This document shows positions 4,068 to 28,900 of a DNA stretch of 36,629 nt, in pieces (within the stretch, counting starts at the first letter, position 1; every line of letters starts with the position of its first letter). The notes under the pieces are model-generated. The model searched no databases and was not told the DNA's origin. It saw only the letters and a program-made list of their open reading frames with translations. A program made the translations under genes and the position numbers. The DNA comes from Chiloscyllium plagiosum (taxonomy: Eukaryota): assembly GCF_004010195.1 (NCBI RefSeq), contig NC_057717.1, forward strand, positions 102,686,358 through 102,722,986, written 5' to 3'.

Positions 4068-4255
4068 GTGATTTGGAGATGTCGGTGTTGGACTGGGGTG
4101 GACAAAGTTAAAAATTACACAACACCAGGTTATAGTCCAACAGGTTTATTTGAAAGCACTGGCTTGACACCTGACAAAGGAGCAGCATTCCGAAAGCTAG
4201 TGCTTCTCGATAAACCTGGTGGACTATAACCTGGTGTTGTGTGATTTTTGACTTA
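4068..4255. mobile_element. Penelope-like palindromic remnant, family B
   Basis: Same inverted arms; central decayed hammerhead ctgacaaaggagcagcattccgaaagcta. Confidence 0.7.
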
Positions 4256-4354
4256 GAAAAATAGAGACTGATATCTTTGTACTAATAGGTCATATGCCAT
4301 GATACAGTAATAACATCAAGACTCTTGAAGAGTCCAGTATCTTCATCTGCTGCA

Positions 4355-4666
4355 AGATTAGATTAGATTAGATTACAGTGTGGAAACAGGCCGTTCGGCC
4401 CAACAAGTCCACACAGACCCGCCGAAGCGCAAACCATCCATACCCCTACATTTACCCCTTACCTAACACTACGGGCAATTTAGCATGGCCAATTCACCTA
4501 ACCTGCACATCTTTGGACTGTGGGAGGAAACCGGAGCACCCGGAGGAAACCCACGCTGACACGGGGAGAACGTGCAAACTCCACACAGTCACCTGAGGCG
4601 GGAATTGAACCCGGGTCTCTGGTGCTGTGAGGCAGCAGTGCTAACCACTGTGCCACCGTGCCGCCC
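4355..4666 (-). mobile_element. V-SINE (HE1-like), full length
   Basis: Minus strand has A box ggtggcacagtggttagc, B box ggttcaattcc, V domain gtgggtttcctccgggtgctccggtttcctcccac and a (AATCT)n tail. Confidence 0.9.
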
Positions 4667-4674
4667 ACAAGATG

Positions 4675-5030
4675 TAACATATCAGACTGATTCCTGGGAT
4701 GGCAGATGAATGAAGAGAGACTAGATTGAGGACTATATTCACTGGAGTTCAGAGAAATGAAGGGAATGTCAGAAACCTGGAAAATTCTGACAGGACTAGA
4801 CAGGGGAAACACAGGAAGGATATTCCCGATGACTGGGGAGTTCAGAACCAGGGGTCAAAGTCTAAAGGTACAGGGTAGGCCAATTCGGACTGAGCTGTGG
4901 GGAAATGTCTTCACCCAGAGAGTTGGCGGGGGAAGGGGGTCTGTGGAAGTCTCTGCTATAGAAAACAGTTGAGGCCAAAACATTGAATGTTTTCGAGAAG
5001 GAGTTAGATGTAACTCTTGGGGCTATAGAG
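4675..5030 (+). mobile_element. CR1 LINE 3' ORF2 fragment
   Basis: Remnant translation EERLD..GLYSLEFR..KILTGLDR..TRG.SLK..FTQRV. Confidence 0.8.
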
Positions 5031-5857
5031 TGTTTAACCAGAATCCTGAATAATTACTTTTTCCGTGCCATTGATTTGCATCTGACAGCCTTGGACCATG
5101 ATCCTTTGTGACATGCCAATGGCTGTTCCCTCCCAGTTCTTGGAGATTTGCCCTTGGTTTATTCGTAGCTCCTGTTTTCCCCGGGAATTCCATTCCTCTG
5201 GCTCTTTCCCTCTCCTGAATGCTCGACAGGCGCGAGATCCTAATTTTTTTGGCGAATGCTCGCAAATCCCAGGCTCCTATGTTGAGTGGTGCAGGTGCAG
5301 AATCATAATGAGCTTTCAGTTCCAGGGAATTTCTGCATCCCTGTGTTCAGCTCTGATGTTTGTAGTTGATGGAATGAAGTGCAGGAATCGGAGGGTGGGG
5401 TGGAGGCAAGTTGCATACATTCAACGCATGAAATCCTTTCAATTCTTCCAGTAAATGGTGTAACTTGATCCTGAGTGGGCCCATAGAGAACAAAAGGGGC
5501 TTTCTGTGCTCTGATCTTTCGGTTCTAATTGAGTCAGTGACTAAATATTTGACAAAGGGCCTAATTTCTTCTCAGAATTTTAAAGAGCAAGGTTCAAGGG
5601 TTTTTTTTGGAATTTTTTGATTTGTGTGTGTGTGTGTCTGACTATCCCTGTGCCTAGGGCAGGCTCTCTGCTTCAGTTGAAAATAGAATGAGTGTACCAG
5701 ACTGACTGGATTGCAACTCATTGATTCCCCACATTAACCAATCCCCTTTATGGTAAAGTTTGGGTTTGTTCTTTCATAAACAAAACAAGAATTACCTTCA
5801 GGGAAAAAAGGGCTGAATTGAAAAGTGAATCAATTCTGGCAATCCCTATCCAGTGAT

Positions 5858-6680
5858 GTCTGTGTGTATTGACATGTGAGCTGTATGTGTGTGTCTCTGT
5901 GTATTTATGTCTGTTTGCCTTTGCATGTGTGACTGAGGATGCATCTGTCTGTCTTTACCTGTGAATGTGTGTGTTCACCTTTTTGTGTGAACCTGCCACT
6001 GCCTGTGTGTGTCACTCTCATGATCTGTCTTTGCATGTATCTGTGCGTGTCTGTGTCTGCTTATCTTGGTATGTGCCTTAGTGTGGCCCTGTTTGCCTTT
6101 GGGTTTGTGTGTGTCTGTGCATGTGTGCACCTGTGTGTATCTTGCCGTGTTTGTCTATGCTGGTATTATCTGTGTTTGTGTGTATTACTAATGTTTGTCT
6201 GTATGTAGGTAGTGTGTGTGTGTGTACTGCCAGTGTTTCTTTTTTTAGATTTTAGATTAGATTCCCTACAGTGTGGAAACAGGCCCTTTGGCCCAACAAG
6301 TCCACACCAACCCTCCGAAGAGTAACCCACACCCCCCCGCCAATGCACCTAACAACTATGGACAATTTAGCATGGCCAATTTACCTAACCTGCACATCTT
6401 TGGAATGTGAGAGGAAACCGGATCACCCGGAGGAAACCCACGCCGACATGGGGAGAATGTGCAAACTCCACACAGATAGTCACTGTGTGTGTGTGTGTGT
6501 GTATGTGTATGGGTATGTGTGTGTACACTGCCTGTGTGTATGTGTGTGTACTGCCAGTGTTCCTCTGTGTGTGTGTGTGTACTGCCAGTGTTTGTCTGTT
6601 TGTAGATATTGTCTGTGTGTGTATATACTGCCAGTGTTTCTGTGTGTGTCTGTCTGTCTCTCTGTCCGTGTATACACTGG
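5858..6680. repeat. Degenerate (TG)n region with recurring tactgccagtgtt motif, interrupted by a SINE
   Basis: Visible directly. Confidence 0.85.
6247..6484 (-). mobile_element. V-SINE, lacking the tRNA head
   Basis: Tail and V domain similar to 4355-4666. Confidence 0.85.
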
Positions 6681-7181
6681 CTACATGTCTATGCACATCA
6701 GCTCCTATGTACGTCTGTGGAATATTGGCTGATGCCACCTGTAGCCAAATAGCCTGCTGAAAAATGGCCAATGTTAACATTTGTAGAGCATTTTCCCCAG
6801 CAGCAATTCACAGCTCCCAGGGGTGGAAGAGAGGGAAAATCCTCCTTGGTGTCCTCCATGGATCTGTGTTTGTGTATGTCTCCTCTGGCCCCTTGGAATG
6901 TAACTGAAGGTACTGCTCTGAAAATCATTCAAATGGAGCTGAACCGTGAATCACTGCCTGGGCTTTCCTGAGTGACTGATTTCAGCAGGGAAATGAGCAA
7001 TAGAATCAGGAGGGCTTGTTAGTAAAACAGCAATGTATTATATTTTAGAAAAGTAATTATAAAAAGAAGGATCAATTAAATCTCAGGGACTAAATAAATA
7101 GCAAGGCTGATTTGAAAGAGTCGGTTATGTTTATGAAGCACATCATCAGGGATGAAGGGATGTTGTAGGTCACTTTGCATT

Positions 7182-7510
7182 CATAGAATCCCTACACTGT
7201 GGAAGCAGGCCATTCGGCCCATCGAGTCCGAACTGACCATCCAAAGAGCATCCCACCCCCTATCACTGTAACTCTGGATTTTCCATGGCTAACCCAGCCA
7301 GCCTGTACATTTCTGAACACTGCGGGTGACTTCCCATAGCCAATCCCCCCTAACCTGCACATCTTTGGATTGTGGGAGGAAACCGGAGCACCCAGAGGAA
7401 ACTCACGCAGAGACGGGGAGAGCGTGCACACAGACAATCGCCCGAGGCTAGGGTCGAACCCGGATCCCTGGCTCCGTGAGGCAGTACTGCTAACCACTGA
7501 GCCACCGTGC
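7182..7510 (-). mobile_element. V-SINE with internally duplicated segment of about 53 bp
   Basis: A/B boxes, V domain and two copies of ccat.gc.aa.c...c.a.cctg.acat. Confidence 0.85.
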
Positions 7511-7699
7511 AACCCTGAGTTATGGCATATGGGACAATAAGCAGACTTTGAGAGGCTGAGTAGCATCAAGCTCTACTTTATGCTCCGAAGGTCTAGCTGT
7601 TACTGCTACACTGCAGTGCTGACCTTTGGCAGACCCTTCAGAAGACTCAGAGCTGGTCACTCAGCCACATGGAAGTGGTGGGCATGAGGGCGGGTGGGT

Positions 7700-7910
7700 G
7701 CTATCGCTTAGCTCAGTTGGCTGGATGGCTAGTTTGTGATGCAGAGGGATGCTAACAGCTTGGGTTCAATTCCAGCTCTCGCTGACGTATACCTTGAAGG
7801 ACCCTCCTTCTCAACCTCTCCCTTCCCCTGCGACATGGTGACCCTCAGGATAAGCATCCATCAGTCATATCTCTCTTTCTAATGAGTCTTTCGAGGGCAA
7901 CTTTACCCTT
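7700..7910 (+). mobile_element. tRNA-derived SINE family C
   Basis: A box tagctcagttgg, B box ggttcaattcc; body ccttctcaacctctccc..ggtgaccctcagg shared with the copy at 18325. Confidence 0.7.
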
Positions 7911-8611: not shown

Positions 8612-8903
8612 AGAAAGTGTGTATTGCAGATGCTGGAGATCAGAATCAAGATTAGAGTGGTGCTGGAAAAGCACAGCAGGTCAGGCAGCATCGGAGCAGC
8701 AGGAAACTCGACGTGTTGGGCAAAAGCACTTCATCGCCATAGAGGAGCAGAATGAGGCCATTTGGCCCATCGATATGCTTCCTAAAGAAGGGCTTATGCT
8801 TGAAATTTCGATTCTCCTGCTCCTCGGATGCTGCCAGACCTGCTGTGCTTTTCCAGCAGCACACTCTCAACTTTAATCTCCAGCATCTGCATTCCTCACT
8901 TTT
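8612..8903. mobile_element. Penelope-like palindromic remnant, family A
   Basis: Inverted arms gcagatgctggagat..gctggaaaagcacagcaggtc.ggcagcatc and their reverse complement; decayed hammerhead cores at the centre. Confidence 0.7.
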
Positions 8904-8981
8904 GCCTGTAATGCTCCTCACCCCTATTTTCCTGCCTTCTCTCTATATCCTTTCAACCCATTACAATTAAAAATTGAAGCG

Positions 8982-12482: not shown

Positions 12483-12610
12483 TAACCACCCCCCTCCCCC
12501 CCTCTCCGCCACATGGAATGTATGTAGTGAGTTAGATGTTGCTAAACTCGCATTATCAAAGGCTGCTGAGTTTACAAGGAAGATTGACGAGGGCTCCCCA
12601 GTTGTGCAGA

Positions 12611-12814
12611 CTTAAAAATCACATCACACCAGGTTACTGTCCAACAGATTTATTTGGAAGTACTAGCTTTCGGTGCCATCAGGTGATTGTGGACTGATGA
12701 AGGAGCAGCGCTCTGAAAGCTAGTGCTTCCAAATAAACCTGTTGGACTGTAACCTGGTGTTGTGTGATTTTTAATTTTGCCCACCCCATTCCAACACTGG
12801 CTCCTCCACATCAT
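12611..12814. mobile_element. Penelope-like palindromic remnant, family B, with near-intact hammerhead core at 12694-12722 (+)
   Basis: Inverted arms; CTGATGA-A-GGAGC-agc-GCTCT-GAAAGCTA. Stem II closes with G-U and stem I is broken. Confidence 0.7.
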
Positions 12815-12829
12815 GATCCCCGGTTGTGT

Positions 12830-13665
12830 TGAGGTTTGTGAGATGAAGAGTAGGAGATGGTGCCTTTACAGCAAATCTGTGATGAAGGTGTTTGATGGGA
12901 GTTGTGGTGGGTTGGTACAAATCAGAGTGGCTGTGTCTGACATCCACATCCACAAGAGGAAGTTACCACACCCGGTTACGATTTAATGCAGGAAGTGATT
13001 GGACCACTGCGACAATACTACGGCTTTAACAGGTGAATTTTATCCTGTTTTTTATGACAACAGGTTGAGACAGAGGAGCCAAGCAGTCTGCTCAAAGCCA
13101 ATAAAGTAAACAGTGTGTGAGGTCTTGGGTTTTTGTTTTAAAGTTGGAACAATAGAAGCAGCCTGAATGATGGAGTCAAGCTCCCACAGAATCAGGAGTT
13201 TTAGTGTTAGCTTTCTGCAATTGCTGGGGTCTTGAAGCTGGATGTAGAAGTTCTTATTCCCCTCTCTGTCACAGCTAAAAGCTGGGGTTCTCTGCCTGCT
13301 GCTAGTATTGCATATGAGACAATCTGTTTTACTGAATTTGCCTTTGCCAAGGGTGTGCTTATGGGAACAGTAGTGGTTAATATCTATATTGTTTTGTTAA
13401 GTATTTTAAGACCGTTATACCAGTTAATATCTATATTATTTTGTTGAGCATTTTGAGAGAGTTACAGTTCAGCCAATTCCATTATTTTTATTTTGACTAG
13501 ATTTTAATTTTGGTGTGTGAATAAAGTGTGTTTTGCTTACAACCTGGTAGTTTGGACAATCATATTGCAACTCGGATGCCACATCTTCCCCTTAATATAA
13601 GAGAAATACTCTGGGATCTAGACTATCTTAATGTATATTGAGGGGGTTTGGTCTGGTCCATAACA
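12830..13665 (+). mobile_element. Probable solo LTR
   Basis: About 830 nt ending ..ggtccataaCA, with AATAAA at about 13520; 5' TG boundary and TSD not resolved. Confidence 0.4.
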
Positions 13666-13971: not shown

Positions 13972-16900
13972 GTGGGTGCGCTCCCGTGATCTGCTCTTGC
14001 TGACTTGCTGCGCTCTCTGCCCGAACCCCCTTTGCGCCCCGCCGAATCGACGGAGAACCTGAGAGTCGGGCAAGCGGCCAGTGACCCACATCTCCTCCCC
14101 CATCCTGGCCGTGTGTCCCGAGGGAGTCTGCCTTTGGCCTGGACTCGATCTGATCTCGAGGGAAGTGACTGGAGTCTGGCCAGTGGAAGCTTAAACTCTA
14201 TCAAGAGAAAGTTCAAAATGACACAACACCAGGTTATAGTCCAATTACAACCTGATGTTGTCTGATTTTGAACTTTGTCCACCCCAGACCAACACCGTCC
14301 ACTCCACATCATGTCAAGAGATGTTGCGCTAATTCTCGAACATTCGGGGCTCTCAGTTAAAAACCTAAGCGCTGTAAGGTGTTTGCAGTTCCCCTCTGTT
14401 TGTTCCCAGTTTTGAAACCAGCAAGGGTCTGGCAGTTTCTGTGGGGGGAGAGAGAGGGACAGAAACAGAGTTAACCCTTCCAAGTCCAATGTGACTTTTG
14501 ACTTCAGAAGCCTGGCAGACCAGCTGGGCTTTGGCATTATTTCCTGTTCTCATCTTTTTGTTCTTGGGCTTGCAGCTGCTCCTTTCCAAGTTCAGTCTTG
14601 CTGCCGTTGTGTTAGGGCTGCAGACATTTGGGAATCGATGACGGCCTAGTCTGGGTTTGGTGCGACGGAATGAGACTGGCTCCTCCGGGGGGTTTGGCTC
14701 ACCTCTCCTCATGTTGCAGCCAGATTTCCGTTTCCGTCTCCCCGTGACTGGGAGAGGCAGTGTCACCTCACTCCCATGTCCAGAGCTTTAAGAAACCATT
14801 GAGTTGGTATCTAACCAGAACACTTAGGCAGCTGCTTATACTATGGCTGCAAAGTTTGGAAGCTGGGGGGGTGGCTGAAATCAGACAACAGGGGGATGTT
14901 TAAAGATTCCCCTACAACTATGACCCACTCTGATCCAGCAGAACGTAACCGATGGGCAGGAAGGACACAACAGAGCCTTGACACAAAGCCCACTTCAGGG
15001 TACGCCATTGTATCCTCGGTTAGATCCAAGTCTACCACTGTCAGAAATGATTTCCTCTACAGCTGCCAGCTTCCCAAGGAGCTGGTATTCCTGGTGAGCC
15101 CCGTAACCTCACACGGCCAGCTATGGTGGTTGGGAACGGGGCCTAGTTTGGAAAGGGGTGCCAAGGTAGAAGGGGAGTCTGCCCACTCCTGCCCCCCTCC
15201 CATTCCTCCCAATTTTGATTCAGTTATGTTTCTGTCTGTGTGTGTGCGACATGCTTCTTGTTTTCAGATTGGTGCTAAGTGAGAGTCTCCGACACCCTCT
15301 CACACCACACAGCGGTGCAGGAATTCCGCACACCTCCGAAGGGAAAGGCAGCTCCCCGAGACACTCGGCCTTTCTCATTTGGTCATTCAGCCTTCTTTAC
15401 TCGCAATCTTTCTCTGGCCATTCCATCATTTCTCTCATGAGCGCCCTTTACTTCATTTACCTTCTCGGTTTCCCATGACGGCTGGTTTTCCTTACTCCTG
15501 CTAATGTGTGTCCAATTCCTCTCTTTATCAGGTTGTCTCCGATGGGATACCATTATCGAACTACTCCAATGCCCTCTGCCCAGTTTCCACCTTCCATAAA
15601 AAAGACTTGAGCTCCTCAACTACTCTGCTGATTTACAGTGAATCCCACCCTCCCACCTCCTCCTGTGATGACTGTCTTGAGTTGTCAACCATTCTGGCAG
15701 TGCCTTCAATTTAAATCTTACGTTATTGTATTCACATCCTTGAGTTGCTTCATCCACTGTAACGTTCCTCACCCCTACAACCCTCTGGATTTTAACTCCA
15801 CCCTCCCTGATTTCAGTCACTGCACCCCTGAGAGCTCTGGACCCTGAAGTCTGGAATGTCCTCCCTAAACATCTCCTCCTTTCAACCTCTCTTCTTTTGC
15901 CTTCCTCTGCAAAAACATGTGCCTCCCTTGGCAAATCCTCAATCACCATAGCACTCCACTATTGATGCCACATCTTCTGCCAGTCTCTGGAATTTCCTCC
16001 TTAAATCCCTCTGCACCACCTCCTCTCCCTTTTGAGATACTGCTGAAAACCTACGTGTGGTTTGCGTCTCGCAAGTGTTTGTCAAAGAGACATCTTTGGA
16101 TGTATTCCCAGACGGGTTTTCCAGCTTCAGTCAGCTCGCCTGATGTCCAAACAATCTTTTTTCCCAACTCCCACATTTTTATAACTTAATAATTCAGGGG
16201 AAGCGTTGCGATGATCTTAATGCACCTTAGGTGTTTCGTTTGGTGTTTCCTGTCAGTGGATCTCAGATGAGATGGTTTGAGAGAAGGAGAGTGAGTGATA
16301 ATGGACATAGTAATCCACAGAGATCCAGGCTCTTGTTCTGGGGAATATTGATCCAACTCCCACAACGGCAACCGGTGGAAATTAAAATAAATTTAAAAGT
16401 TAAAGTCTGAAATTGAAAACTGGTCCCAGTGACGATGACCATGAAGCTAACAATGCTTGTCCTAAGAATTCATTAGGGAGGGAAATTTGCTGTTTATACC
16501 CGATCTGTCCTACATGTCACTCCAGACCCACAGTGTAATATCTCCACAGAGACTGGTATCCCGTTACCAGGTCACCCATTATTTACACGTAGACTCATAC
16601 AGCATGGAAGCAGACCCTGTGGTCCAACCACTCCACGCTGAACATGATCCCAAACTAAACCAGGCCTGCTCCTGGCCCAAATACCTCCAAACAATTCCTA
16701 TTCAAATGTCTTTTAAACATTGCATTATACCCACATCCACCGCTTTCTCAGGAAGTTCCTTCCACATGCGAACCACCCTCTGTCTAAAACATTTTAATTC
16801 TCTCTCCACTCACCTTACAAATGTGCCACCAAGCCTCGAAATTCCCCTATCCTCAGGAAAAGACAAATACCATGTAAGTCTCATTATTTTACATACATCT

Positions 16901-19900
16901 ATAACGTCGCCTCCCAACCCGCTACACTCCAGTGAAAAAAACTCCCAGCCTATCCAGCCTCTCTCCATAACTCAAACCCCCTATACCTGGCAATATCATG
17001 GTAAATCATGAACAGTCCTTAACTCTAGTACTGCCTCGTCAGAGTCAACTTTCAGAGTGAACAGAACCTCTGACCCTCCTGTTTATTTCTGATGAAGGGC
17101 TTTTGCCCGAAACGTCGATTTTCCTACTCCTCGGATGCTGCCTGACCTGCTGTGCTTTTCCAGCACCACTCTAACCTAGACTCTGATTTTCAGCATCTGC
17201 AGGACCCACATCTGCCTGTTGATATCTGTCAGCCAGGACTCCCTGATTGGAACAGCCCCAGTCAGGGGATTCATATTCTATGAGGTTCCTCTGGCTGACA
17301 TCGTTACAATCACTACACACAACACTGTGGTTGACTTTTATCTACCGTCTGAAATGGGACAACACTAGGTTATAGTCCAACAGGTTTAATTGGAAGCACT
17401 AGCTTTCGGAGCGCTGACAATCACCTGATGAAGGAGCGTCGCTCCGAAAGCTAGTGCTTCCAATTAAGCCTGTTGGACTATAACCTGGTGTTGCATGATT
17501 TTTAACTTTGTACACCCCAGTCTAACACCGGCATGTCCAAATCTGAAATAGGAGACCACTTCAAGGGCGGTTAAGGACAGGTAACAGTCACGCTCTCACC
17601 CCATCAAAGAAGAAGACTGATGAGATGAATCTTTACATAATTGGAGACTCTGGGACAAGCGTCTGTCTAACCTAGACTGATCTTGACGCCACAATCGCAA
17701 ATTGCCTGAAAGTTGGCCAACTCGGAACAATGGAGGTGTTCCTCTCCCTCATGAGAGAAGATGGTGGTCTCACCTTTTTTGCCCCTGCCCCCTTCCACCG
17801 GCCCTCCCCCTCCCCCTCTTCCTCTCTGTATGTCTCCTCCGCTTCAGTCTGTCTTTCTCGCTGCTTTTTACAGACAGCCACCACCCGGCCCCGCCACAAA
17901 AAGAGGAGGAAGGGTCGCAAACGCTCTAGAAAGAAGGGCAAGGGCAGATCAAAGAAATCGAAAAAAAACCGCAGAAAGAAGAAGAAAGATCGGGCCGCTC
18001 GGCAAAAAATAGAAACTTTTGGGGTTGGGGAACAGGTAGACACGAAAACAAAAAATCCGATTGAGCTCCTTCTTAGGACAATGTAGGAGGAGCTTGGATG
18101 AGCTTTAATGATTGATACATATGATACAGCTAACACAGACTTAATACAGCCTTGCGGACCTCGATAAAGCCCTGTTCATATTACACTCCCAGTCTAGACA
18201 TTCTTAGTAGCTCCTTCATGAGATGTGCGTTTGTCCCAGTGAGAGTGGGAGGGGTGGACTTTGAGGAGGTGAGGAGATGGAGGTGAAGTGGAGTCAACAG
18301 TTTGGCGGTTAGCTTTCTTCTTGGGAGATCGGATAGCTCAGTTGGCTGGGCAAATGGTTTCTGATCATCACGGGTTCAACAATGCCCACCCCAGCTGAAG
18401 GTTACCCCGAAGGACTGTCCTTCTCAACCTCTCCCCTCGCCTGAGGCCTGGTGACCCTCAGGCAAAAGCAGCCCCAGCTCTCTCCAATGAAAGAATGAGA
18501 CAATGGTGCTAGCGAGTTTTGAGAAGATTTGTAGCTCAGGTTGAGGTTCTGGATGTAGGTTTGCTCGCTGAGCTGGAAGGTTCATTTTCAGACATTTCGT
18601 CACCATACTAGGTAACATCTTCAGTGAGCCTCCGGACGAGACCGGAATGGTGCCTTTACCAATTAATGTTAACTGAGAAAGGTAATCAAGGTCGAAAGTT
18701 GTTGGCCAATGACTTCTGATTGATTAGTTCCTGGCGTCCAAATACTCCCCTGTTTGGAATGCACAAATGTGCTCTAGATCTGACAGTGGTTCTTTCAAAA
18801 CGTTCACTCTCTTCACTGTTATTGTAAAATTGGGGTTGGTACCTGGTGACTTCAGACCCAGTTTTCCGACACGTTCTCCTCCATCCTGAGTTGAACATAT
18901 ATTGCCATTCCTTTAGTGTTGCTGGGTCAAAATGCTGGAACCCCCACCCCTCCCACACACAATGTACTTGCACCAAATGCACTGCTGCAATTCAAGATGG
19001 CAGCTCACCCCCAACCTTCTCCAGGGCAGCTAAAGATGGCCAATCAGTGGTGACCTAGCCAGCAATGCCTGTGCTCCTGAATGAAAAGTTTGTGTACCCT
19101 AAAATATTTGTCACACCATTGAACACAAGTCTGATCAAAACCTTTGAGGTTCTGTGCCACAATTCCATGTTTGTTCGCTGCAAACATTGGGACAGTCCTC
19201 ATTGGGAATCCCTGCTGTCAGTGTCTGAAAGGTAACAGCTAGCTTGGGTCAGGAGGGGACCATTCAGGATCCTCTAGAATCTTGTACCATTCAGTAAGAT
19301 CTGTATCTCAATTCCGGCCTCTTGTGTTCCATATCCCATAGTGTCCCCTCATCCAACAGGTCGCATCTCTTGACGTTTTTGATTGGTTTCGGAATGCATA
19401 GAATTGCAGAGTGTTTCCAAGGAAGGGTGTGCCATCGATGGAACAGAGAGGGGTGGTGGGATTGGTGGAGTATTTAGGGTGTTGGGATTGCGAATGGGGT
19501 CCAAGGTTTCGGAATTGAGAAGAATTAGTGCGAGAAACTGGGGTTCGGTTTTGTGTGTCAACTGGTGATAGTGGAAAGAAAGCTCCCCCCCCCATGGCCT
19601 GTACTCTGACCAGGTTCCGTGTAATCTGAATGGGGCTTGAGGTGCTTATTTCTGGCAAGACGACTGAATGTGTCACTGATAATCGCAATGCGTCGCTTCA
19701 CAGCAGTAACTGATCACAATAATCTGGCTTTCTGCCCGTACTGCATTGCTCGACTTTAACATCACGCATTATTCAGAGTCGCTTTTGCGCTGCCCCACAG
19801 GCTGATTTTGTTTTAATCTTCAAGGTTTTCTCTGTCTGTAAATTGTCGAACTCCGGTCCGAAGGTAGGTTGCCGGGTGTGGACTGACGGACGCGTCCAGG

Positions 19901-22900
19901 CGCTTTTTGACGTCTGGAGGGGGCAGCTATTGGGTTGTACTCGGTTAGAATGTAGAACATAGGACAATACAGCGCAGAACAGGCCCTTTGGCCCTCAATG
20001 TTGCGCCGACCTGTGAACTATTCCCCTTACACCACCCTTAGGCTACACTACACTTAGGCTGCAGGTCCGTTTGGAATCCTGTAATGTCCTCCCCATCGCC
20101 GTCACCTTTTCAGATGTTACACCGGTCACCGAGACTCCCTCAGGTGGGGCTTAACCCCCCTCCCCAGGCGTTGTCCTCGGGGAGCAAGCTCAGCTGCTCC
20201 AGGGTGCACCAGGCCATTTGCTTCATTGGTCAAGAGGGATACGGACCAAATGTGGGCAATTGGAACTAGCTGAGTGGGCACTATGGTCAGCATGGAGCAA
20301 TTTGGGCATGAGGAACAGGCTTCTAGGGAGGGAGGGAGGGAGGACTCATCGGGGTGAGGACAGTGTGGATTCCACCAAGCCCAAAAAACAAAACGCATTT
20401 TAATACGAATTAAAAATGATGGACACTTCCTTGGTGACGTACTGAGTTCCCTTCAGTGAGTAGGCAAATTGTCAGTGTGGCTTAAGCCGATTCCTTGTCC
20501 TGGCAACTGTTCCCCCGGAGCTGGGCAAAATCAAATTCCCTTTTCCCCCTTCTGAGGCTGGTTACTTGCCTCTTGTCATAGAGTGATACAGCATGGATAG
20601 GGGCCCTTCAGCCCAAACTGCTCCATGCCGACCATGGTGCCCACTCAGCTAGTTCCAATTGCCCACATTTGGTCCGTATCCCTCTTAAAGTCTTCCCATC
20701 CATGTACGGAACCAAACGTTCTTTAAACATTTCATGTAGAAGCCCTCCGATGACGGTGAGTCCGGAATATGGCCTCCTGTTCCGTGCTGCGTTACATTTG
20801 GGATGGACTCCTGCTGTTGTCACTTGGTCAATAGAGCGAGTCAGAGGCAGACATTGTGTCTTCAAGGAGGAGCTCGCTACAGCTCTTAAAGGGACCAAGG
20901 GATATGGGGATGAGCTCAATGATCAGCCATGATCATATTGATTGGTGGGGCTTACCCCTGCTCCAGCTCCTTAGCTCAGGTAATAGGGAAGGGCAGGGGG
21001 GAGCTGATCCCCATCCTATCCCAGTTTCACACACCCCCCGCCCTCCTCCAACATCATATTGATTGGTGGGGCTTACCCCTGCTCCAGCTCCTTAGCTCAG
21101 GTAACAGGGAAGGGCAGGGGGGGAGCTGATCCCCATCCTATCCCAGTTTCACACACCCCCCCGCCCTCCTCCAACCCCCCTGAACAAAATCACAGCCAGA
21201 GAAGGGTCAGTCCAGGCCTACTGCTCAGGTGCCTAACACCCTTTCGCTTTCTCCCCAGGACAAGGAGCAGCCTCAACTAGAGGAAGCAGAGAATAATTAC
21301 GATTATTTCCTTGGTGCGGAATACTACACTGATTTGGAATCGGTCCTCCTCAACTCCTCTGCGAATGCTGAGGTTGGAGCAGAAAACGTGACCGACCACG
21401 AGGTAACCCCTTTGCCTGAAAGCCGGGGCTCCTTTAAGATTCCCCATCCGCATGCAGTTGCTGACGGTGCAGAGGGATGGTTGAGGCTCAGTGGAGCATG
21501 AGCATGGCTAATGGACAGACCTCCAGACAGATTAACCTTCAGGAGGTGTGGCCGATATGAGCTGTCCCTTTGTCAGGGATCAGGAATAATTCCACAGTCG
21601 GTCTCCTGTTCCCACCCCCCTGGCCCAAAGTGAGATTGAAGTTCCATTCCCTTTGTACCCTGTCCCTTCTCCAACATGTGACTGTAGAGAATTCCCACCC
21701 CCCCCGGGGGAATTCCCAGCAGCCTTGATTTCACCACGGAGTGGGTCTTGGTGAAGGGAGAGAGTGCACTGGCATGGACCTGTCACAGACTGACCTTTGG
21801 TTGGCTGGCAAACCCAAAGGCTGGTTCACCAGGAAGTTGCTGGATTGGCCATTTTGCTGCTTTCTGACCGACTGCAGTCACTGACTCAGGAATCACTGAC
21901 CGTTAAGTGGCTACTACTGTGTCATTAGGCTTTTAATCTCTCTCCCTCCTCCCTCCCTCTCCTCTCTTTATGTCTCTTCTTTCTTCTCTCTTCCTTTTTC
22001 TCTTTCTCTCTCCATTCTCTTTTCTCTCTCTTTCTCTCTCCCCTCATCTCCCTCCTCTCACTGTCTCCCTCCTTTTTGCTTTCTCTCTGCCTCCTATCTT
22101 CTCTCTTTCTCTCTCTTCATGCTCTCCGTCTCCCTCTCTCTGTCCACTCTCTGTGACTCCCCTCTCTATATTTGTCTGTCTATCTCTCTTTGTCTCTTTG
22201 CTTCTCTCTGTCTCTCTCTCTCTCTCTCTGTCCTCTCTTCACTCTCTCTTTCTCTTCAATGTCTCTCTGCCTTCTTTCTTCTGTCTCCTCTCTCCCTCTC
22301 TCTTTGTTTGACAATGGTGGACTAATGGGTGTAAGGACCCTTGAGTGTTTCCTTGGAGATTGCCTGCTCATTTTGCCTTGTCCGGGGAGTTTTGAGTGTG
22401 CTGGCTATCATTGTCCTCTCTACCAGCAGAGAGAAGGTAGACTGCCCTCTCCTCTCACCTTGGGCTAGTAGGAATCGCCCTGTCAGCAGATTGGTTGAAC
22501 ATTAAGAAAGCTGTTTCTTTGGCTTTCAGACATGCTGAGTCTTCCTGAAGATATGACAGGTGCTATATATTCGAAAAGCTTTTCATAGACTCCCTACAGT
22601 GTGGAAATAGGCCACTTGGTCCAACAGGTCCACACCGATCCTCTGAAGAGTAACTCACCCAGACCTCTTCCCCTACGTTTCCCATGACTATTCCACCTAA
22701 CCTACACATCCCGAAGCAGTGTGGGGAATTTCCCATGAAAATTCCATCTAACCTGCACTTCTTTGGATTGTGGGAGCAAACTCACGCACACATGGGGAGA
22801 ACGTGCAAACTCCACACGGACAGTTGCCCGAGGCTGGAATCGAACCTGGGACCCTGGTGCTGTGAGGCAGCAGTGCTAACCACTGAGCCGCCCATGTGTG

Positions 22901-25900
22901 TTAGCACAGAAGGAGGCATTTCTGCCCATCACTTTGGTGCCTGCTCTTTGGTAGAGGCCTCCATTTGAAAGCAGATGCTTTTATGTCTGCGCTGGAATCG
23001 GGTTTTCAGACAAGCCTTGCGTTGCCAGGGGGTCGTTCGGTGAGGTTTAATTATACTTTCAGGAAGCATTAACACATGACTCAGGGCCAGACTTGGATCT
23101 GATTCCCTGTGCGGTCCATTCCTGCTGCATGAATCATACTGTCTTTGTGGAATATTATTCCCTTATCAGGAACGTTAACTTTTCTGGAATTTACAGGGAG
23201 CATTGGTGTCCAGTTGCTGTGGATGATTTCCTAGTGTTTGTAACTTTTTATCCCATTGGTAAACACTGTGCCATTTTGGCCTGGCTGATTCCAAGGAGGA
23301 ATTCAACCTCAGCTACAGTGTAACCCAGTTACAGACATGGTACATTTTTCTCACTCTTAAATTGCTGTCTGTTAACCCATTGAAATGAATGAGCTAGTGG
23401 ATGCTTTGGAGTAAGGTTGTAGTGTAAAGATACCCAATGTGTGCTCAACAATGGGCAACTAACTGAGGCCAGAACATTGGAACTACAAGGAGTTGGGGAA
23501 TGTGTCAATATCTTGTAAAGTGGAACACGTTTCTTTAATTCATTGGATGAGAGCATCGCTGCTTAGGACAGCATTTATTACCCAAAGGGGCAGTTAAGAG
23601 TCAACCACATTGCTATGGGTCTGGAGTCACGTGTAGGCTAGACCAGGTAAGGATGGCAGCTTCCATCCCTAAAGAGTGGGCTTTTCCCCTGACAGTCAGG
23701 AATGGATTCCTGATCGTCATCAGACTCTTAGTTCCAAACTTCCACTTAACCGTGGTAGGGGATTTGAACTCAGATCCCCGGAACATTATCTGGGTTGCTG
23801 GATTAATAGTCCAGCAATAATGCCACTAGGCCATCGCCTCCTTGCTCGGGGATGGCTGGATTTTTGACAAAGATGTACGCAAAACACATCGAGGGCCATT
23901 GAACCGATCTGAGGGAAGTAGCTTGGACTGTGGGAGGAAACCGGAGCACCCAGAGGAAACCCACGCACACAGGGGGAGAATGTGCAAACTCCACACAGAG
24001 TCACCTAAGAGTGGAGTCAAAACTGGGTCCCTGGTGCAGTGAGGCAGCAGAGCTAACCACTGAGCCACCGAGCACTGAAGGCCGGGAGATGTTGTTACTC
24101 CAGTAACTAGTTGACATGGTGGCATTGTGGTCATGTGATGGGACCCATCGTCCTGAGGCAGGACTGATGCTTTCAGGGTGTAGGAGCGGGAACGTAGTTT
24201 CAAATCTCACCAGGGCAGCTGATGGAACTGAAAGTACGCTGCATAAAATCTGGGATCAGAAGCTAGTCTGGGAGTCGGTGACGGAGAAAATCTGCTGTCC
24301 CTTTCCTACATGTGACTCCAGACCTGCTCAGCATTCCAGCCAGCTTTTAACTGCTCTCTGAAATGGCTGGGTGAGTTTGAGGGCAATTAGGGAGGGCATC
24401 AGAACACAGATTACATGGCCAGCAACACCCAGGTCCCATGAAAAATTAATTTGTCTCCTTTTTGATTACAGACCATGCAAGAGGAACTCATTGAAGAATC
24501 TGAAGGTCCCTTTACAAGCGAGTATGGAATCGGACATTATGGTACAGATATCAACGATTACTTCGATGGAGACTATGATGACCGGTGGAATGAGAGATAT
24601 GGACCAGCTGTACGAGTTGATATACAAGATACCCTGGTAAACCAAATATTCTCGTCCTTTAAAATTATTTATTTCAGTTAGTAGTTTAGATGCATTATAT
24701 TTTGATTATTCCTGAACAACGCTACAATGCAGTCAAAGCTTTTTGTCCGTCACCCACCAGGACAGATGCAAGAATTCCAAATTTTAAAGGAAACAACCAT
24801 TTTTGAGTATATTTATGCTTATGCAAATTTGTTTAAACCATTTGGTTGACAAAATGTCCCTCATTGATCAAGGCATTATATCGGAGAATGCCTCAGATGA
24901 GCTAAAGATTTCCACTCTGATGATTAATTTAAAATTGATACACTGTCCCACAGAGGACAGATGCCCTTCTAATAAGCATAGATGAGCCACACTTCAAACC
25001 CAAGTGTTTATCTTAAATCGGCTGTTAAGTGTAAATCTTAGCACATTTAGGATTGTTGACCAAACGATGTCCAAGGCTGGCCCATCTCCTGTTCTTTGCC
25101 ACTGTTAAACTGCTAGTCGGAAGCATTGAGGGGGGGAATGCCATAACAAGGCATTTGTAGTCATAGGATCAGCAGGTCTAATTGGGTAGATATCTAGGAG
25201 AAAGTGGGGACTGCAGATGCTGGAGATCAGAGTCGAGAGTGTGGTGCTGGAAAAGCACAGCAGGTTAGGCAGCATCTGAGAAACAGGAGAGTCAATGTTT
25301 TGGGTTCCTGATGAAGGGCTTATGCTCAAAATGTCGATTCTCCTGCTTCTTGGATGCTGCCTGACCTGCTGTGCTTTTCCGACACCACATTCTCAACTAG
25401 GTAGATACCTGGAGGAGTCATCATGTGATGTCAAGTTCTGAACAAGAGTCAGTCTGGGTTCAGAGGACAACACCTCCAGGAACAGGCCCTTCAAGCAAGC
25501 TCAAAATATTCTCTCTGTTCCTCTCTCCACACATGCTGGGTTTCCTGCAGCATTCTTTATCATTATGTGAGGATCTAGCCCTGACAGAATCATAGAATCC
25601 CTACTGTGTGGGAGATGGCCATTTGGCCCATCCAGTCCACACCAGCCTTCTAAATAGCATCCCACTCAGACCTGTAACCCTGCATTTCCCATGTCCTAGC
25701 CAGCACATCCCTGGACATTGCAGGGAAACAGCATGGCCAATCCACCCTAACTTGCACATCATTGGACTGTGGGAGGAGACCCATGCAGACATAAGGGATA
25801 ATGTACAAACTCCACACAGACAGTCACCCAAGGTCAGGATCGAACCCAGGTCCTTGGTGTTGTGAGGCTGCAGTGCTAACCACCGAGCCACCGTGCCAAC

Positions 25901-28900
25901 AGGTTTGGAAGGCAGCCTGCATTTAAACAAAGTGACATTTCACATTTGGATGAATGCCCAGCAGTTGTGAATGTCCTGGAGCGTACCAGTGACTCTGTGT
26001 GCTCCCCCTGTCGGGTCATCCGTGTCTAGAAACCCTGTTTTTGAAATCAACAGTATGCATTGAACCAAATTAATAAGGGGTGGGTGGAGCTGTGACAAAA
26101 CTCCACCCTTAAAACAAACTTAAAAACTAGATTAAGATTTGATTGTGAGAGGTGAAAATGCAGTTCCAGCTCCTGCAGGAAAAATGAAATGCATTCATTT
26201 AGCATCAGGTAAGCCAACTTGGAGATGATGTTAAAAATCACACATCACTCGGTTATAGTCCAACAGGTTTATTTGGAAACACTGACTTTCGGAGCATTGC
26301 TCCACCATCGGGTTGTGTGATTTTTAACATTGTCCACCCCAGTGCAAGTCCAAGTCATGGAGGTGATGTGTAACAGTACAATTGGGAGAAATCAAATTGC
26401 TGTGGCAACATTCACTTTTACGTGCATAGAGTCATAGAGGTTTACAGCATGGAAACAGGCGCTTCGGCCCATCTTGTCCATGCCACCCAGTCTTCACAAT
26501 TAATCTAACCCCATTTGCCTGCGTTCAGTCCATATCCCTCCATACCCATCCCTTCCATGTACCCGACTAAATGTTTCCTAAATGATAAAGTTGAACTCCC
26601 TTCCGTACCTCTTGCAGTCTGGAACTATGGAGGGTGACGGTAGAGGCTCCCATGGTCTGTTCATCACAGAGCTCACCAGGGGTCTCTCTCGTTCTAACTG
26701 CCTATCATTGGCGTTTCTTTGAGCACATTATGGATGCAGCCTGTTCAGCCACTGGGTCCAAGAGTGAGTCTCGAACGTAGAGGTTCCAGCTCAGAGGCAG
26801 GAGTCATCTTGCTGCCCCACTGTAGCTTTTTTCTTTCAGAAATTTTTGAACCAACCTGTTTTGAGATTTTATTACACAGCTGTGGAGCAGATGGGACTTG
26901 AACCCTGACTCAGCCGCTACCGCAAGAGCCCCAGCAGTTTCTGTTCATGTGTGTATAAGGTACTTCATCAGTGAATACCTCCACCTGTTTTGTCCTTAGC
27001 CTTAACAGTACAATCGATAAAACGTTAACGGGAAATAACGCAGGGCTGTCGTGTGTTAGTGCAATGTATGGTACATGGTGACATGTTTTGAAGGAAGTTC
27101 ATTTTACTGTGACTGGTGCTGTTCTCTGGCCCTCATTCTAGGGTGTTGTATTATTTCTAGACGCCGAGCCTGAAAGGAGAGAAGGGGGAGAAGGGAGCGC
27201 CTGCAGTCATTGAGCCTGTGAGTATGCGGTTCTGGTCCACGGTCCCTCCTTCGACACTGTGCTGTTAGGCCCCTCATCTCTGCCTGGCAGTGTTACCCCG
27301 TCCTGCCCTGGGTATCTCTCGCTCTATCTGAATCCGAAACCATAAACATTAGTCGCCTATTCAATCGCGTAGGGCATTGCATTCCCTGCCCGATCCTGGT
27401 CTCAGGGCATTCCTGCGCGTGGACAGTCTCGGTAAGATCTATCGGACTGCCACCAGGGTAGGGGAGATGAACACTGGCCAATTGCTTTCTCTCCCCACCA
27501 CTGCCCCCCATTACTAGCTGTAGGTAAAGTAAGGAGTGAATTTGGGTCATTGTCTCTCTGTTATATACAGTGTATTCCTTCACTCAGGGGGAGAAAGGAA
27601 AGATTCTTTTCGGAAATCATCTCACTGCCCCCACTCCTTCCCCACCGGGCTTGTCCCATTCAACAGGGCCATGGCTGATCCATTATCCAAACATCATTTT
27701 CTCACAGCATTCCCTGGTGTCTTTGTCTTCAACATTCTCAGCGACTGAGCTCCCTCTGCAGTAAAGAATTCCAAAGGTTCACTCCCCTCTGAGTAAAGAA
27801 ATATCTCCTCATCTCAGTATATCTCCTCCCGCTGTCAATGACCTGCTCTGATTCTGAGACTGCTCCCCCATGCCCTTCCTGCACCTACTATTACAGCCCT
27901 GTATGAACTGTATATGTTTCAGTCAGGTCCACCCCCCTCGTTCTTCTAAACTCCGAGGATACAGGGCCAGTCTCTTACACACGCACGAGCACACACATAC
28001 ATGCACACACACATGACACATACACACATGTATGTACACATACACACAAATATATGCGCACACATGTGTACAGGCACACACATGCATATGTACACACACG
28101 CATACATACACACGTACATTCACATGTTCACACACACAAATGTATGCACACAGATGTACACACAGACACATACATGCACACATAGACACATGCATACATA
28201 CACACATGTATGTACACACACACACACCAGGCACACACACGTGTACACACACAAATATATGCACAGTATACACACACATGCACAGACACACATATGCATA
28301 AACACATACACATACATACACATGTGTATGTACACACACACCAGACACACACACACAAATATATGCACACACTTACGTGCACACAGAGACACACACATAC
28401 ATACACACATGTATGTCCACACATACACACACACACAAATGTATGCACGCACATGCATATATGCATACACAGGAGAAAGTGAGGTCTGCAGATGCTGGAG
28501 ATCAAAGTTGAAACTTTATTGCTGGAACAGCACAGCAGGTCAGGCAGCATCCAGGGAACAGGAGATTCAACGTTTCGGGCTCATTCCTGAAGAAGGGCCT
28601 GTGCCCGAAACGTCAAATCTCCTGTTCCCTGGATGCTGCCTGACCTGCTGTGCTGTTCCAGCAATAAAGTTTCAACTATATGCATACACACACACACGTG
28701 TATATCACCTTATAGATTGGTACTACTCAAACCAACAGCGATTAAGTCCTTACATTTACATTTTTGTGTTTTGTTTGAAGGGAATGTTGCTGCCTGGACC
28801 TGCAGGACCCCAGGGACCTCAGGTAAGTGTTTGTTTATAAAAAACAAGCTTCTTTTTCACATTTTAAAGTAAATTGGTGACTGACCCCCCTTCCCCCCCC

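What the first reader, a model, noticed from the sequence alone, without database searches (positions are those of the whole stretch)
4068..28677. Collagen introns carry minimal hammerhead ribozyme motifs from three Penelope-like families
Seen: CUGA(U/A)GA, one extra nucleotide, stem II, GAAA, short palindrome and a UH site. Motifs are at 17087-17118 (+, ACGU), 28583-28618 (+, ACGU), 17422-17456 (+, AGCU), 12694-12722 (+, AGCU) and 18588-18627 (-, AUGU), with decayed copies near 3215, 4171, 8780 and 25308. Stem II differs among families (GGGC/GCCC, GGAGC/GCUCC, GUUACC/GGUGAC) yet stays paired, which is covariation-like support. Established: Penelope-like elements carry minimal type I hammerheads whose stem III is a short palindrome and which cleave as dimers. 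Inference: these MITE-looking palindromes are Penelope pseudo-LTR remnants bearing ribozymes, and the best-preserved cores are mostly sense to the pre-mRNA.
Basis: partly seen in the sequence, partly recalled or inferred. Interest (0 to 1): 0.75.

Follow-up and report, generated by a model that had tools for sequence, protein, structure and literature searches.

The report
Hammerhead motifs in Penelope-like element remnants
The hairpin-shaped repeats in this stretch are short dead copies of the tail end of Penelope-like jumping genes, each carrying that element's usual small hammerhead ribozyme motif; this is an ordinary, already described kind of repeat.

Summary
All five motifs are real. My descriptor (CUGANGA, one extra base, stem II, GAAA, paired 15.2/16.2, UH) finds exactly those five sites. 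The mean over 300 dinucleotide shuffles is 0.003. Rfam's hammerhead models do not see them.

The motifs sit in at least 11 short insertions of three sequence families. These insertions show the hallmarks of Penelope-like elements (PLEs):
- an inverted 5'-truncated copy joined to a direct copy;
- a 35-nt "tail" at one end only (28 of 28 parsed genome copies);
- target-site duplications of variable length, 8-18 bp;
- fold-back centres that differ from copy to copy.

Elsewhere in the genome, family A/As and C units lie on the same strand 0-565 nt downstream of RT + GIY-YIG coding sequence, in 19 of 30 GIY-YIG loci. About 0.04 per locus is expected from flank density. Family B has the same architecture, but I found no ORF link. 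It looks like a non-autonomous element of about 480 nt.

In the palindromic copies the long hairpin beats the ribozyme fold by 10-19 kcal/mol. Cleavage of the host pre-mRNA is therefore unlikely, and it is untested.

"Collagen introns" rests on one 63-bp Gly-X-Y exon at 35480-35542 (+).

The phenomenon has been published since 2014, and this scan reached the same conclusion on another piece of this genome.

The parts
3163..3688 (-). Family-B long element. The direct copy is 3163-3578, 5'-truncated from an element of about 480 nt, with a decayed hammerhead at 3213-3237. An adjacent inverted arm with tail lies at 3589-3688.
   Evidence: At least 7844 first-look candidates in the genome; 83-86% identity in the 40 scored.
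4064..4257 (+). Family-B fold-back insertion with a decayed hammerhead at 4171-4199 (G8 changed to A; stem II mismatches). The tail is on the left arm.
   Evidence: (I6).
8614..8902 (+). Family-A fold-back insertion. Both arms carry decayed hammerheads: 8782-8809 on + and 8710-8737 on -. The centre holds foreign filler of about 40 nt.
   Evidence: (I4, I8).
12606..12840 (+). Family-B fold-back insertion with a complete motif at 12694-12722 (+, AGCU; G.U at 10.1-11.1). The tail is on the right arm. Probable 11-12-nt TSD with one mismatch.
   Evidence: (I3).
14205..14279 (.). Family-B fragment consisting of outer arms only, with no hammerhead.
   Evidence: (I9).
17067..17205 (+). Family-A solo copy (not palindromic), 5'-truncated about 20 nt upstream of the motif. 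Complete motif at 17089-17116 (ACGU). It is 92-94% identical to units downstream of GIY-YIG ORFs (L042, L033, L054).
17356..17541 (+). Family-B fold-back insertion with a complete motif at 17425-17453 (AGCU). The tail is on the right arm. 8-bp TSD TCTGAAAT at 17348 and 17542.
   Evidence: (I7). Rfam's sub-threshold MIR845_1 hit at 17384-17469 is this hairpin.
18510..18645 (-). Family-C solo copy, 5'-truncated, with a complete motif at 18591-18624 (helix III AUGU, probably decayed ACGU). 8-bp TSD AATGGTGC at 18502 and 18646.
25199..25398 (+). Family-A fold-back insertion with a decayed motif at 25308-25335 (G12 changed to A). The tail is on the left arm. Imperfect TSD of about 12 nt.
   Evidence: (I5).
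26230..26330 (-). Decayed family-B copy with a hammerhead remnant at 26283-26311.
28472..28676 (+). Family-As fold-back insertion (205 nt). The 35-nt tail is at 28472-28506, and the complete motif is at 28587-28614 on the tail-less arm. 14-bp TSD TATATGCATACACA at 28458 and 28677.
   Evidence: (I1).
35480..35542 (+). The only collagen-like exon in the window: 63 bp, (Gly-X-Y)x7, preceded by AG and followed by GTAAGT.

Best explanation
The window holds at least 11 dead-on-arrival insertions made by Penelope-like retroelements (PLEs). Each insertion is only the last 90-480 nt of the element's RNA.

Layout of the parent element. In this genome's PLEs the order is: RT-GIY-YIG ORF, about 150-200 nt of 3'UTR, the minimal type-I hammerhead, 65-95 nt, the site where reverse transcription starts, then an optional 35-nt tail.

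Proposed insertion mechanism. The element's endonuclease makes staggered cuts, which give the 8-18-bp target duplications. Reverse transcription is primed from target DNA at one of two internal start sites. One copy is often made from each DNA strand. The two short cDNAs are joined head to head inside or next to the hammerhead. This gives a fold-back palindrome with the tail on one arm only.

Status of each step.
- Shown here: the motifs, the insertion architecture, and the physical link of families A/As and C to RT/GIY-YIG ORFs.
- Taken from the literature: the two start sites and two-strand priming (PMC11167929); the inverted copy and one-sided tail as PLE hallmarks (PMC8557442); the minimal hammerhead as a PLE feature that cleaves poorly, as dimers or with protein help (PMC4209133, PMC11167929).
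- Inferred: family B is a non-autonomous element mobilised by a PLE. In the host transcript these copies are passive. The palindromic ones fold as long hairpins rather than as ribozymes.
For: Motifs beyond chance: 5 observed against 0.0033 expected.

Family As in the genome.
- At least 1706 first-look candidates. All 40 scored places cover 151-153 of 153 nt at 92-100% identity.
- 30 aligned copies have different centres.
- 28 of 30 copies could be parsed. All 28 have the tail at one end only.
- Among those 28, a complete motif sits on the tail-less arm in 19, on the tail arm in 3, and on neither arm in 6. No copy has it on both.
- A TSD of 13-18 nt was found in 20 of 28.

A sample chosen by arm identity alone.
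- 40 of 40 scored places are 100% identical over 94 nt.
- I fetched 10 of them. In 7 the copy runs on upstream for about 70 to more than 200 nt, with different truncation points.
- In the other 3 the copy begins 4 nt before C3.
- The tail is present in 4 of the 10.

Link to ORFs.
- That upstream sequence abuts GIY-YIG coding sequence in L063, L056, L065, L037, L036 and L043.
- The GIY-YIG search gave 14403 first-look candidates.
- In 19 of 30 GIY-YIG loci an A/As unit (17 loci) or a C unit (2 loci) lies on the same strand 0-565 nt downstream of the protein homology. Unit density in 109 kb of control flanks predicts about 0.04 per locus.
- L033, L053, L054, L057 and L058 align collinearly to residues ~210-800 of 800-900-aa relatives. 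Those relatives carry RVT_1 plus GIY-YIG.
- GIY-YIG passes Pfam's cut-off in 5 of 9 locus ORFs tested.

Family C: a common 3' end, variable 5' ends and an occasional inverted partner.

Literature (passages read): PMC4209133, PMC8557442, PMC11167929.
Against: - No PLE coding remnant lies in the window itself. tblastn with 37 relatives gave 0 hits at E<=1e-3.
- Family B was never found next to an ORF. Its longer form is a non-coding element of about 480 nt.
- 11 of the 30 GIY-YIG loci showed no A/As or C unit downstream. Several of these are cut by contig ends or by stretches that read N. A relaxed scan of 10 of these 11 found a hammerhead-like site with one core mismatch on the ORF's strand downstream in one of them, L044.
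- Rfam's hammerhead models give nothing even at E<=10.
- Covariation inside the A superfamily is marginal: score 0.162 against 0.143 in shuffles, with 21 of 500 shuffles as high.
- Helix I has only 0-3 contiguous pairs in the window copies.
- Catalysis, two-strand priming and the joining step were not tested here.
Confidence: 0.85

Rival explanations
1. The fold-back itself is the replicating unit. On this view a non-autonomous hairpin retroposon, retrozyme-like or SINE-like, is copied as a whole palindrome by a PLE enzyme. It is not made anew at each insertion.
For: - At least 1706 candidates, with 92-100% identity over the whole palindrome.
- Always exactly one tail, in 28 of 28 parsed copies.
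- The complete motif is mostly on the tail-less arm, 19 against 3.
- Family B does have a discrete non-coding form of about 480 nt.
Against: - The centre differs among copies whose arms are otherwise nearly identical.
- Among 10 fetched copies with a 100%-identical arm, 7 are not fold-backs and run on into the 3'UTR next to PLE ORFs. I left out one row that had a reported inverted partner, so this sample leans against fold-backs.
- At least 6 of the 40 places show an adjacent inverted match.
Confidence: 0.07
2. They are MITEs: deletion derivatives of a cut-and-paste DNA transposon whose inverted repeats happen to contain a hammerhead-like string.
For: - Palindromic shape with arms 54-79 nt long and 81-96% complementary.
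- High copy number.
- One family-B copy has an 8-bp TSD.
Against: - TSD length varies from 8 to 18 nt.
- The arms are unequal by a 35-nt tail.
- Solo copies and 5'-truncated copies share one 3' end.
- The units are physically contiguous with RT/GIY-YIG ORFs.
- Three unrelated families all carry the same ribozyme descriptor, against 0.003 expected by chance.
Confidence: 0.02
3. The sense-strand motifs have been taken over by the host. They self-cleave the collagen-like pre-mRNA, or otherwise regulate it.
For: - 4 of 5 intact motifs are on the strand of the one exon.
- Same-family pairs with matching helix III palindromes exist on the + strand: 17089 and 28587 (ACGU), and 12694 and 17425 (AGCU).
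Against: - With decayed copies the count is 7 + against 4 -, which is no bias.
- The same-family partners are 4.7 kb and 11.5 kb apart.
- In the three palindromic copies the ribozyme-competent fold costs 10-19 kcal/mol more than the hairpin, with a probability of 4e-8 to 4e-14. In the two solo copies the probability is about 1e-3.
- Helix I has 0-3 contiguous pairs.
- The copies decay at CpG sites like neutral DNA.
- PLE hammerheads cleave poorly without the element's protein (PMC4209133; PMC11167929, passages read).
- That the region is an intron is itself unverified.
Confidence: 0.03

Closest known systems
Minimal hammerhead motifs (min-HHR) of metazoan Penelope-like elements (Cervera & de la Pena 2014, PMC4209133; dimer cleavage by Lunse et al., cited in PMC6765202, paper itself not held)
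   Same: - Type-I layout.
- CUGANGA and GAAA boxes.
- One unpaired base between A9 and 10.1.
- G10.1-C11.1 pair.
- No helix III hairpin, but a self-complementary 15.1-16.1 tetrad.
- Short helix I.
- Many sequence families per genome.
- Most copies are single motifs in truncated elements, and some are close pairs on opposite strands.
   Different: Nothing essential. Stem II is 4-6 bp here, against the 7-8 bp reported for the Schistosoma families. Activity was not assayed.
Canonical EN+ PLE insertion units (Penelope/Poseidon, Neptune, Nematis) as described by Craig et al. 2021 (PMC8557442) and Frangieh et al. 2024 (PMC11167929)
   Same: - RT + C-terminal GIY-YIG ORF.
- Strong 5' truncation.
- An inverted 5'-truncated copy abutting the direct copy.
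- A 30-40-bp tail at only one end.
- Internal start of reverse transcription.
   Different: - In Anolis PAc the hammerhead overlaps the start of the ORF. Here it lies about 150-200 nt after the stop of the ORF, in the units seen downstream of GIY-YIG. Whether the same unit also precedes the ORF in tandem copies could not be seen.
- I did not determine which PLE clade these belong to.
Animal non-LTR retrozymes (Cervera & de la Pena 2020, PMC7229834, search listing only; Li et al. 2026 preprint 10.64898/2026.07.22.740005, abstract and passages)
   Same: Non-coding elements with type-I hammerheads, related to PLE pLTRs and present in one sampled cartilaginous fish. The ~480-nt family-B element could be of this kind.
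   Different: Retrozymes are defined by head-to-tail tandem arrays that yield circular RNA. The window copies are dispersed single or fold-back insertions, not tandem.
MITEs (miniature inverted-repeat DNA transposons)
   Same: Short, palindromic, high copy number, non-coding.
   Different: Variable TSD, a one-sided tail, a shared 3' end with variable 5' ends, and contiguity with RT/GIY-YIG ORFs.

Membership tests
PLE-type minimal type-I hammerhead motif | Catalytic boxes C3-U-G-A-N-G-A9 and G12-A-A14, then A15.1 ... U16.1-H17 | tested here: met
   5 of 5 named sites. 6 further copies have one or more core changes.
PLE-type minimal type-I hammerhead motif | Helix II closed by G10.1-C11.1, with one unpaired base between A9 and 10.1 | tested here: met
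   The extra base is present in 5 of 5 (A, A, A, A, U). G10.1-C11.1 is present in 4 of 5; the 12694 copy has G.U.
PLE-type minimal type-I hammerhead motif | No helix III hairpin; self-complementary 15.1-16.1 tetrad that allows a dimer | tested here: met
   ACGU twice and AGCU twice. AUGU once, pairing only through G.U and probably a decayed ACGU.
PLE-type minimal type-I hammerhead motif | Helix I of about 4-5 bp | tested here: inconclusive
   The five window copies have 0, 2, 3, 0 and 3 contiguous pairs. The commoner As variant (GUC-G) would give 4 pairs, GAAU/AUUC (read by eye).
PLE-type minimal type-I hammerhead motif | Compensatory changes in helix II | tested here: met
   Between families: GGGC/GCCC, GGAGC/GCUCC and GUUACC/GGUGAC. 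Further variants are AGGC/GCCU, AGGU/ACCU and GGGU/ACCC. Within the A superfamily the signal is only weak: 84% of stem II cells are paired, with 5 GC-to-AU double changes at one pair, and 21 of 500 shuffles score as high.
PLE-type minimal type-I hammerhead motif | Self-cleavage at H17 | not testable with these tools
Rfam hammerhead families | Score at or above the gathering threshold of a hammerhead covariance model | tested here: not met
   0 matches at gathering. None of the 41 matches at E<=10 is a hammerhead. From recall, these models expect a helix III hairpin, which the minimal motif lacks.
Penelope-like element (EN+) insertion | Reverse transcriptase plus GIY-YIG endonuclease ORF belonging to the same element | tested here: met
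   Met for families A/As and C in the genome. Not found for family B. No coding remnant in the window.
Penelope-like element (EN+) insertion | Inverted 5'-truncated copy adjoining the direct copy | tested here: met
   Seven window copies. 30 of 30 As loci chosen with the palindrome as query. An occasional partner in family C.
Penelope-like element (EN+) insertion | 30-40-bp tail present at one end only, or optional | tested here: met
   35-nt tail at one end in 28 of 28 parsed As fold-backs. Present in 4 of 10 arm-selected copies. Family B has a tail of about 40 nt or more on one arm.
Penelope-like element (EN+) insertion | Target-site duplication of variable length | tested here: met
   13-18 nt in 20 of 28 copies; none found by my strict rule in the other 8. 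In the window: 14, about 12, 8 and 8 nt.
Penelope-like element (EN+) insertion | Tandem or partial-tandem arrangement forming pLTRs | tested here: inconclusive
   Not seen in the window. L055 shows a second patch of protein homology after the unit. Stretches reading N prevented a closer look.
MITE / DNA transposon | Terminal inverted repeats with a TSD of fixed length, and a matching transposase element | tested here: not met
   Variable TSD, unequal arms, and contiguity with RT/GIY-YIG ORFs.
Animal non-LTR retrozyme | Head-to-tail tandem repeats, each with a hammerhead | tested here: not met
   The motifs are dispersed, 336 nt to 11.5 kb apart, and the nearest neighbours belong to different families. 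I ran no tandem-repeat finder.

The most novel reading that the evidence does not exclude
The 5' edge of hammerhead helix I may be the true 5' end of the RNA that the PLE enzyme copies, for example a transcript started by the pLTR promoter.

On this reading the ~95-130-nt units and the fold-backs are full-length copies of a minimal RNA made of the hammerhead plus the entry site for reverse transcription. They would not be random truncations. The hammerhead region, or a hammerhead dimer holding two templates head to head, would set the fold-back junction.

Hints for this reading:
- 3 of 10 arm-selected copies start exactly 4 nt before C3.
- No fold-back arm in the 30 aligned copies extends more than about 6 nt before C3.
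- The inverted arm always ends inside the motif.
Probability: 0.2. Interest if true: 0.45.

Novelty: new member of a known kind. Interest (0 to 1): 0.2.

Why it matters
It matters mainly for annotation. These fold-backs look like MITEs or microRNA hairpins, but they are the tail ends of Penelope-like retroelements. One of them gives a sub-threshold MIR845_1 hit. Annotation pipelines often mislabel such elements.

The near-identical copies (40 of 40 scored arms identical over 94 nt) suggest recent or ongoing PLE activity in this genome. This makes the genome a useful natural record of PLE integration products: a one-sided tail, a junction inside the hammerhead, and TSDs of 13-18 bp. That record can be set against the in vitro model of Frangieh et al. 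2024.

Nothing here suggests a role for the motifs in the host gene.

Tried and rejected
- Rfam. The gathering scan and the E<=10 scan gave no hammerhead. The 41 weak hits are microRNA-like matches to TG/CA repeats and to the fold-back hairpins.
It was not available.
- ARAGORN. It found no tRNA-like head, so there is no sign of a tRNA-derived SINE.
- tblastn of 37 PLE-like proteins against the window. No hit.
- Family B to ORF link. I looked in the 30 GIY-YIG loci, with the ~410-nt body, and by walking upstream in 8 copies. I found only a non-coding element of about 480 nt, preceded by CA/CT-rich sequence in 5 of 8 copies.
- The long 'open frames' of 772 and 1407 aa are artefacts of stretches that read N. 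I left these stretches alone.
- Pfam on 9 locus ORFs. GIY-YIG was found in 5. RVT_1 appeared only in one ORF, on the strand opposite the GIY-YIG match, and that is probably an unrelated element. RT adjacency was instead shown by collinear tblastn.
- Covariation test inside the A superfamily. It is marginal, so I do not lean on it.
- Expression. There are therefore no read data on introns, strand or cleavage ends.
- Lunse et al. (PMC5785218) is not held. It is known here only through the review PMC6765202.
- I first read the GUC-A variant of the window's As copy as a private CpG decay. I dropped that reading: 40 of 40 scored places share it, so it is a subfamily variant.

Full report
**1. The observation**

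I read the five named sites and then scanned the whole window on both strands with my own descriptor. It asked for CTGANGA, 0-2 extra bases, a stem II of 4-9 bp (G.U allowed), a loop of 3-10 nt, GAAA, a pairable 15.2/16.2, then T and a non-G base.

- 12694-12722 (+)
- 17089-17116 (+)
- 17425-17453 (+)
- 28587-28614 (+)
- 18591-18624 (-)

The window holds 34 CTGANGA boxes, and five extend to the full motif. In 300 dinucleotide-preserving shuffles the mean count was 0.0033, and one shuffle had a single hit. Even counted as three independent families, this is far beyond chance.

Rfam found no hammerhead at its gathering scores or among 41 matches at E<=10. From recall, those models expect a helix III hairpin, which this minimal form lacks.

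The decayed copies near 3215, 4171, 8780 and 25308 are there. Further ones lie at 8710-8737 (-) and 26283-26311 (-).

**2. What carries the motifs**

The inverted-repeat scan shows that seven of the copies are fold-backs, with arms of 54-79 nt that are 81-96% complementary. The window copies fall into three sequence families:
- A, with a young subfamily As: stem II GGGC/GCCC.
- B: stem II GGAGC/GCUCC.
- C: stem II GUUACC/GGUGAC.

The genome that holds the window has 3.56 Gb.

With the As fold-back as query there were at least 1706 first-look candidates. All 40 scored places matched 151-153 of 153 nt at 92-100% identity. Aligning 30 of them with flanks showed several things:
- One arm starts 35 nt further out than the other. 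This is the "tail".
- The element is flanked by direct repeats of host sequence.
- The centre differs from copy to copy while the arms are nearly identical.

In a scripted tally, 28 of 30 copies could be parsed, and all 28 have the tail at one end only. A duplication of 13-18 nt (one mismatch allowed) was found in 20 of the 28. A complete motif sits on exactly one arm in 24 of 30 copies, on neither in 6, and on both in none. Where it is present it is mostly on the tail-less arm, 19 against 3.

The window's own copies have duplications of 14, about 12, 8 and 8 nt.

Variable duplications, unequal arms and variable centres are not what a cut-and-paste MITE shows.

**3. Link to Penelope-like elements**

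A search of the genome with Pfam GIY-YIG gave 14403 first-look candidates and 47 matches, and I took 30 loci.

In 19 of these 30 loci, an A/As unit (17 loci) or a C unit (2 loci, L039 and L041) lies on the same strand as the endonuclease, 0-565 nt downstream of the protein homology. Unit density in 109 kb of unrelated flanks predicts about 0.04 such units per locus.

A relaxed scan of 10 of the 11 other loci found a variant motif with one core mismatch (GGGU/ACCC) on the same strand downstream in one of them, L044. It also found a complete motif (AGGU/ACCU) on the opposite strand in L038.

The coding evidence is as follows:
- A 429-aa open frame in L065 passes Pfam's GIY-YIG cut-off.
- Its longer relatives of 759-1058 aa carry RVT_1 and GIY-YIG by the precomputed Pfam lists, and in my own scan of two of them.
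- Loci L033, L053, L054, L057 and L058 align collinearly to residues ~210-800 of such relatives, right up to the unit.

I then drew a sample that does not favour palindromes, by searching with one As arm alone. All 40 scored places were 100% identical over 94 nt. I fetched 10 of them, leaving out the window itself and one row that already showed an inverted partner. At least 6 of the 40 rows show such a partner. In the 10 fetched copies:
- 7 continue upstream of the motif for about 70 to more than 200 nt, with different truncation points.
- 3 begin 4 nt before C3.
- 4 carry the tail.

That upstream sequence abuts the endonuclease homology in L063, L056, L065, L037, L036 and L043. In L065 the motif starts about 150 nt after the end of the open frame.

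Family C copies share one 3' end and have variable 5' ends. The window copy is a 136-nt 5'-truncated piece.

The window itself has no PLE coding remnant.

**4. Family B**

The window's B copies have the same build: a fold-back, a tail of about 40 nt or more on one arm, and duplications of 8 and about 12 nt.

The copy at 3163-3578 (-) belongs to a longer non-coding element, with at least 7844 candidates and 83-86% identity. In 8 fetched copies this element extends about 60-70 nt further 5' than the window copy, and in 5 of the 8 it is preceded by CA/CT-rich sequence.

I found no B unit next to an ORF. I therefore read B as a non-autonomous element mobilised by a PLE. This rests on architecture only, and I put it at about 0.6.

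**5. Comparison with the literature**

- Cervera and de la Pena 2014 (PMC4209133, whole text of parts 1-2 read) define the minimal hammerhead of metazoan PLEs. Its features are the extra base after A9, G10.1-C11.1, a palindromic 15.2-16.2, a short helix I, many families per genome, mostly single motifs in truncated elements, some close pairs on opposite strands, and low activity in vitro even as dimers.
- Craig et al. [quoted passage not shown]
- Frangieh et al. 2024 (PMC11167929, main text read) show that a lizard PLE protein cleaves and extends both DNA strands and starts reverse transcription at two internal sites. The interval between those sites is the tail. Its hammerhead needs the protein to cleave and is dispensable for insertion in vitro.
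- A 2026 preprint (10.64898/2026.07.22.740005, abstract and passages) ties animal retrozymes to PLE pLTRs and includes one cartilaginous fish.

The present copies fit all of this. I tested the claim independently here.

**6. Would they cleave the host RNA?**

Several lines argue against it:
- For the three palindromic copies with intact motifs, forcing the ribozyme core fold costs 10-19 kcal/mol against the long hairpin. The ensemble probability is 4e-8 to 4e-14. For the two solo copies it is about 1e-3.
- Helix I has 0-3 contiguous pairs.
- The nearest same-strand neighbours, 17089 and 17425, belong to different families. Their helix III tetrads (ACGU, AGCU) cannot pair with each other. Same-family partners are 4.7 and 11.5 kb apart.
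- Copies decay at CpG sites within the core. In family C, the 15.2/16.2 dinucleotide is CG in 8, TG in 9 and CA in 4 of 22 distinct copies. The window's AUGU is therefore probably a decayed ACGU.

I conclude that the motifs are passive here. This is an inference and was not assayed.

**7. Gene context**

Only one collagen-like exon is present, at 35480-35542 (+). It is 63 bp, (Gly-X-Y)x7, with AG before it and GTAAGT after it. The other short Gly-X-Y hits are five copies of an unrelated repeat.

Whether the finding's range is an intron could not be checked.

Four of the five intact motifs are on the + strand. With the decayed copies the count is 7 + against 4 -.

**8. Covariation**

Between families, stem II differs completely and stays paired. 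Other PLE lineages in the genome add AGGC/GCCU, AGGU/ACCU and GGGU/ACCC.

For the A superfamily I aligned 60 distinct sequences chosen by their arm, not by the motif. Within it:
- Stem II is paired in 84% of cells, and one pair shows five GC-to-AU double changes.
- The overall score barely exceeds the shuffles: 0.162 against 0.143, with 21 of 500 shuffles as high.
- Sliding the partners drops pairing from 75% to 46% or less.

Most copies are neutral descendants of a few masters, so this weak signal is expected.

**9. Verdict**

This is a new instance of a known kind. One loose end may be of interest: 5' ends and fold-back junctions cluster at the hammerhead. [quoted passage not shown]

Noticed in passing
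window 20232-20686: Two 76-nt arms, 96% complementary, separated by 303 nt (I2). This looks like a true terminal-inverted-repeat element, unrelated to families A-C.
   Followed up: no
window 4384-4419, 6277-6312, 7203-7238, 25612-25647 (-) and 29665-29700 (+): Five copies of another short repeat translate as a false Gly-X-Y run, for example GLCGLVGPNGLF. They could mislead a search for collagen exons.
   Followed up: partly
window 8735-8775: The centre of the family-A fold-back at 8614-8902 holds about 40 nt that resemble the repeat named in the previous item (by eye). It may be filler from a template switch during insertion.
   Followed up: no
window 27970-28470 and 34379-34777: TG/CA-rich simple sequence gives most of the sub-threshold microRNA-like Rfam hits: mir-297, mir-3149, mir-1277.
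   Followed up: no
L088, L089, L091, L092, L094 (upstream of family-B long elements): 5 of 8 fetched copies are preceded by CA/CT-rich microsatellite-like sequence. A microsatellite insertion bias is reported for some PLE clades (PMC8557442, abstract).
   Followed up: no
L083, L086, L081 and the As fold-backs: The shortest As copies begin exactly 4 nt before C3, at the 5' edge of helix I: 3 of 10 arm-selected copies. No fold-back arm in 30 copies reaches more than about 6 nt before C3.
   Followed up: partly
window 254-538 (+) and 32083-32382 (+): Two stop-free stretches of 95 and 100 aa share an ...FTQRVV..W / ...FPQGVVNLW-like ending. From recall this resembles the C-terminus of LINE reverse transcriptases. 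Not tested.
   Followed up: no
G000 loci L034, L061, L062 and others: The open frames of 772 and 1407 aa reported are runs of N read as X, not real ORFs.
   Followed up: yes
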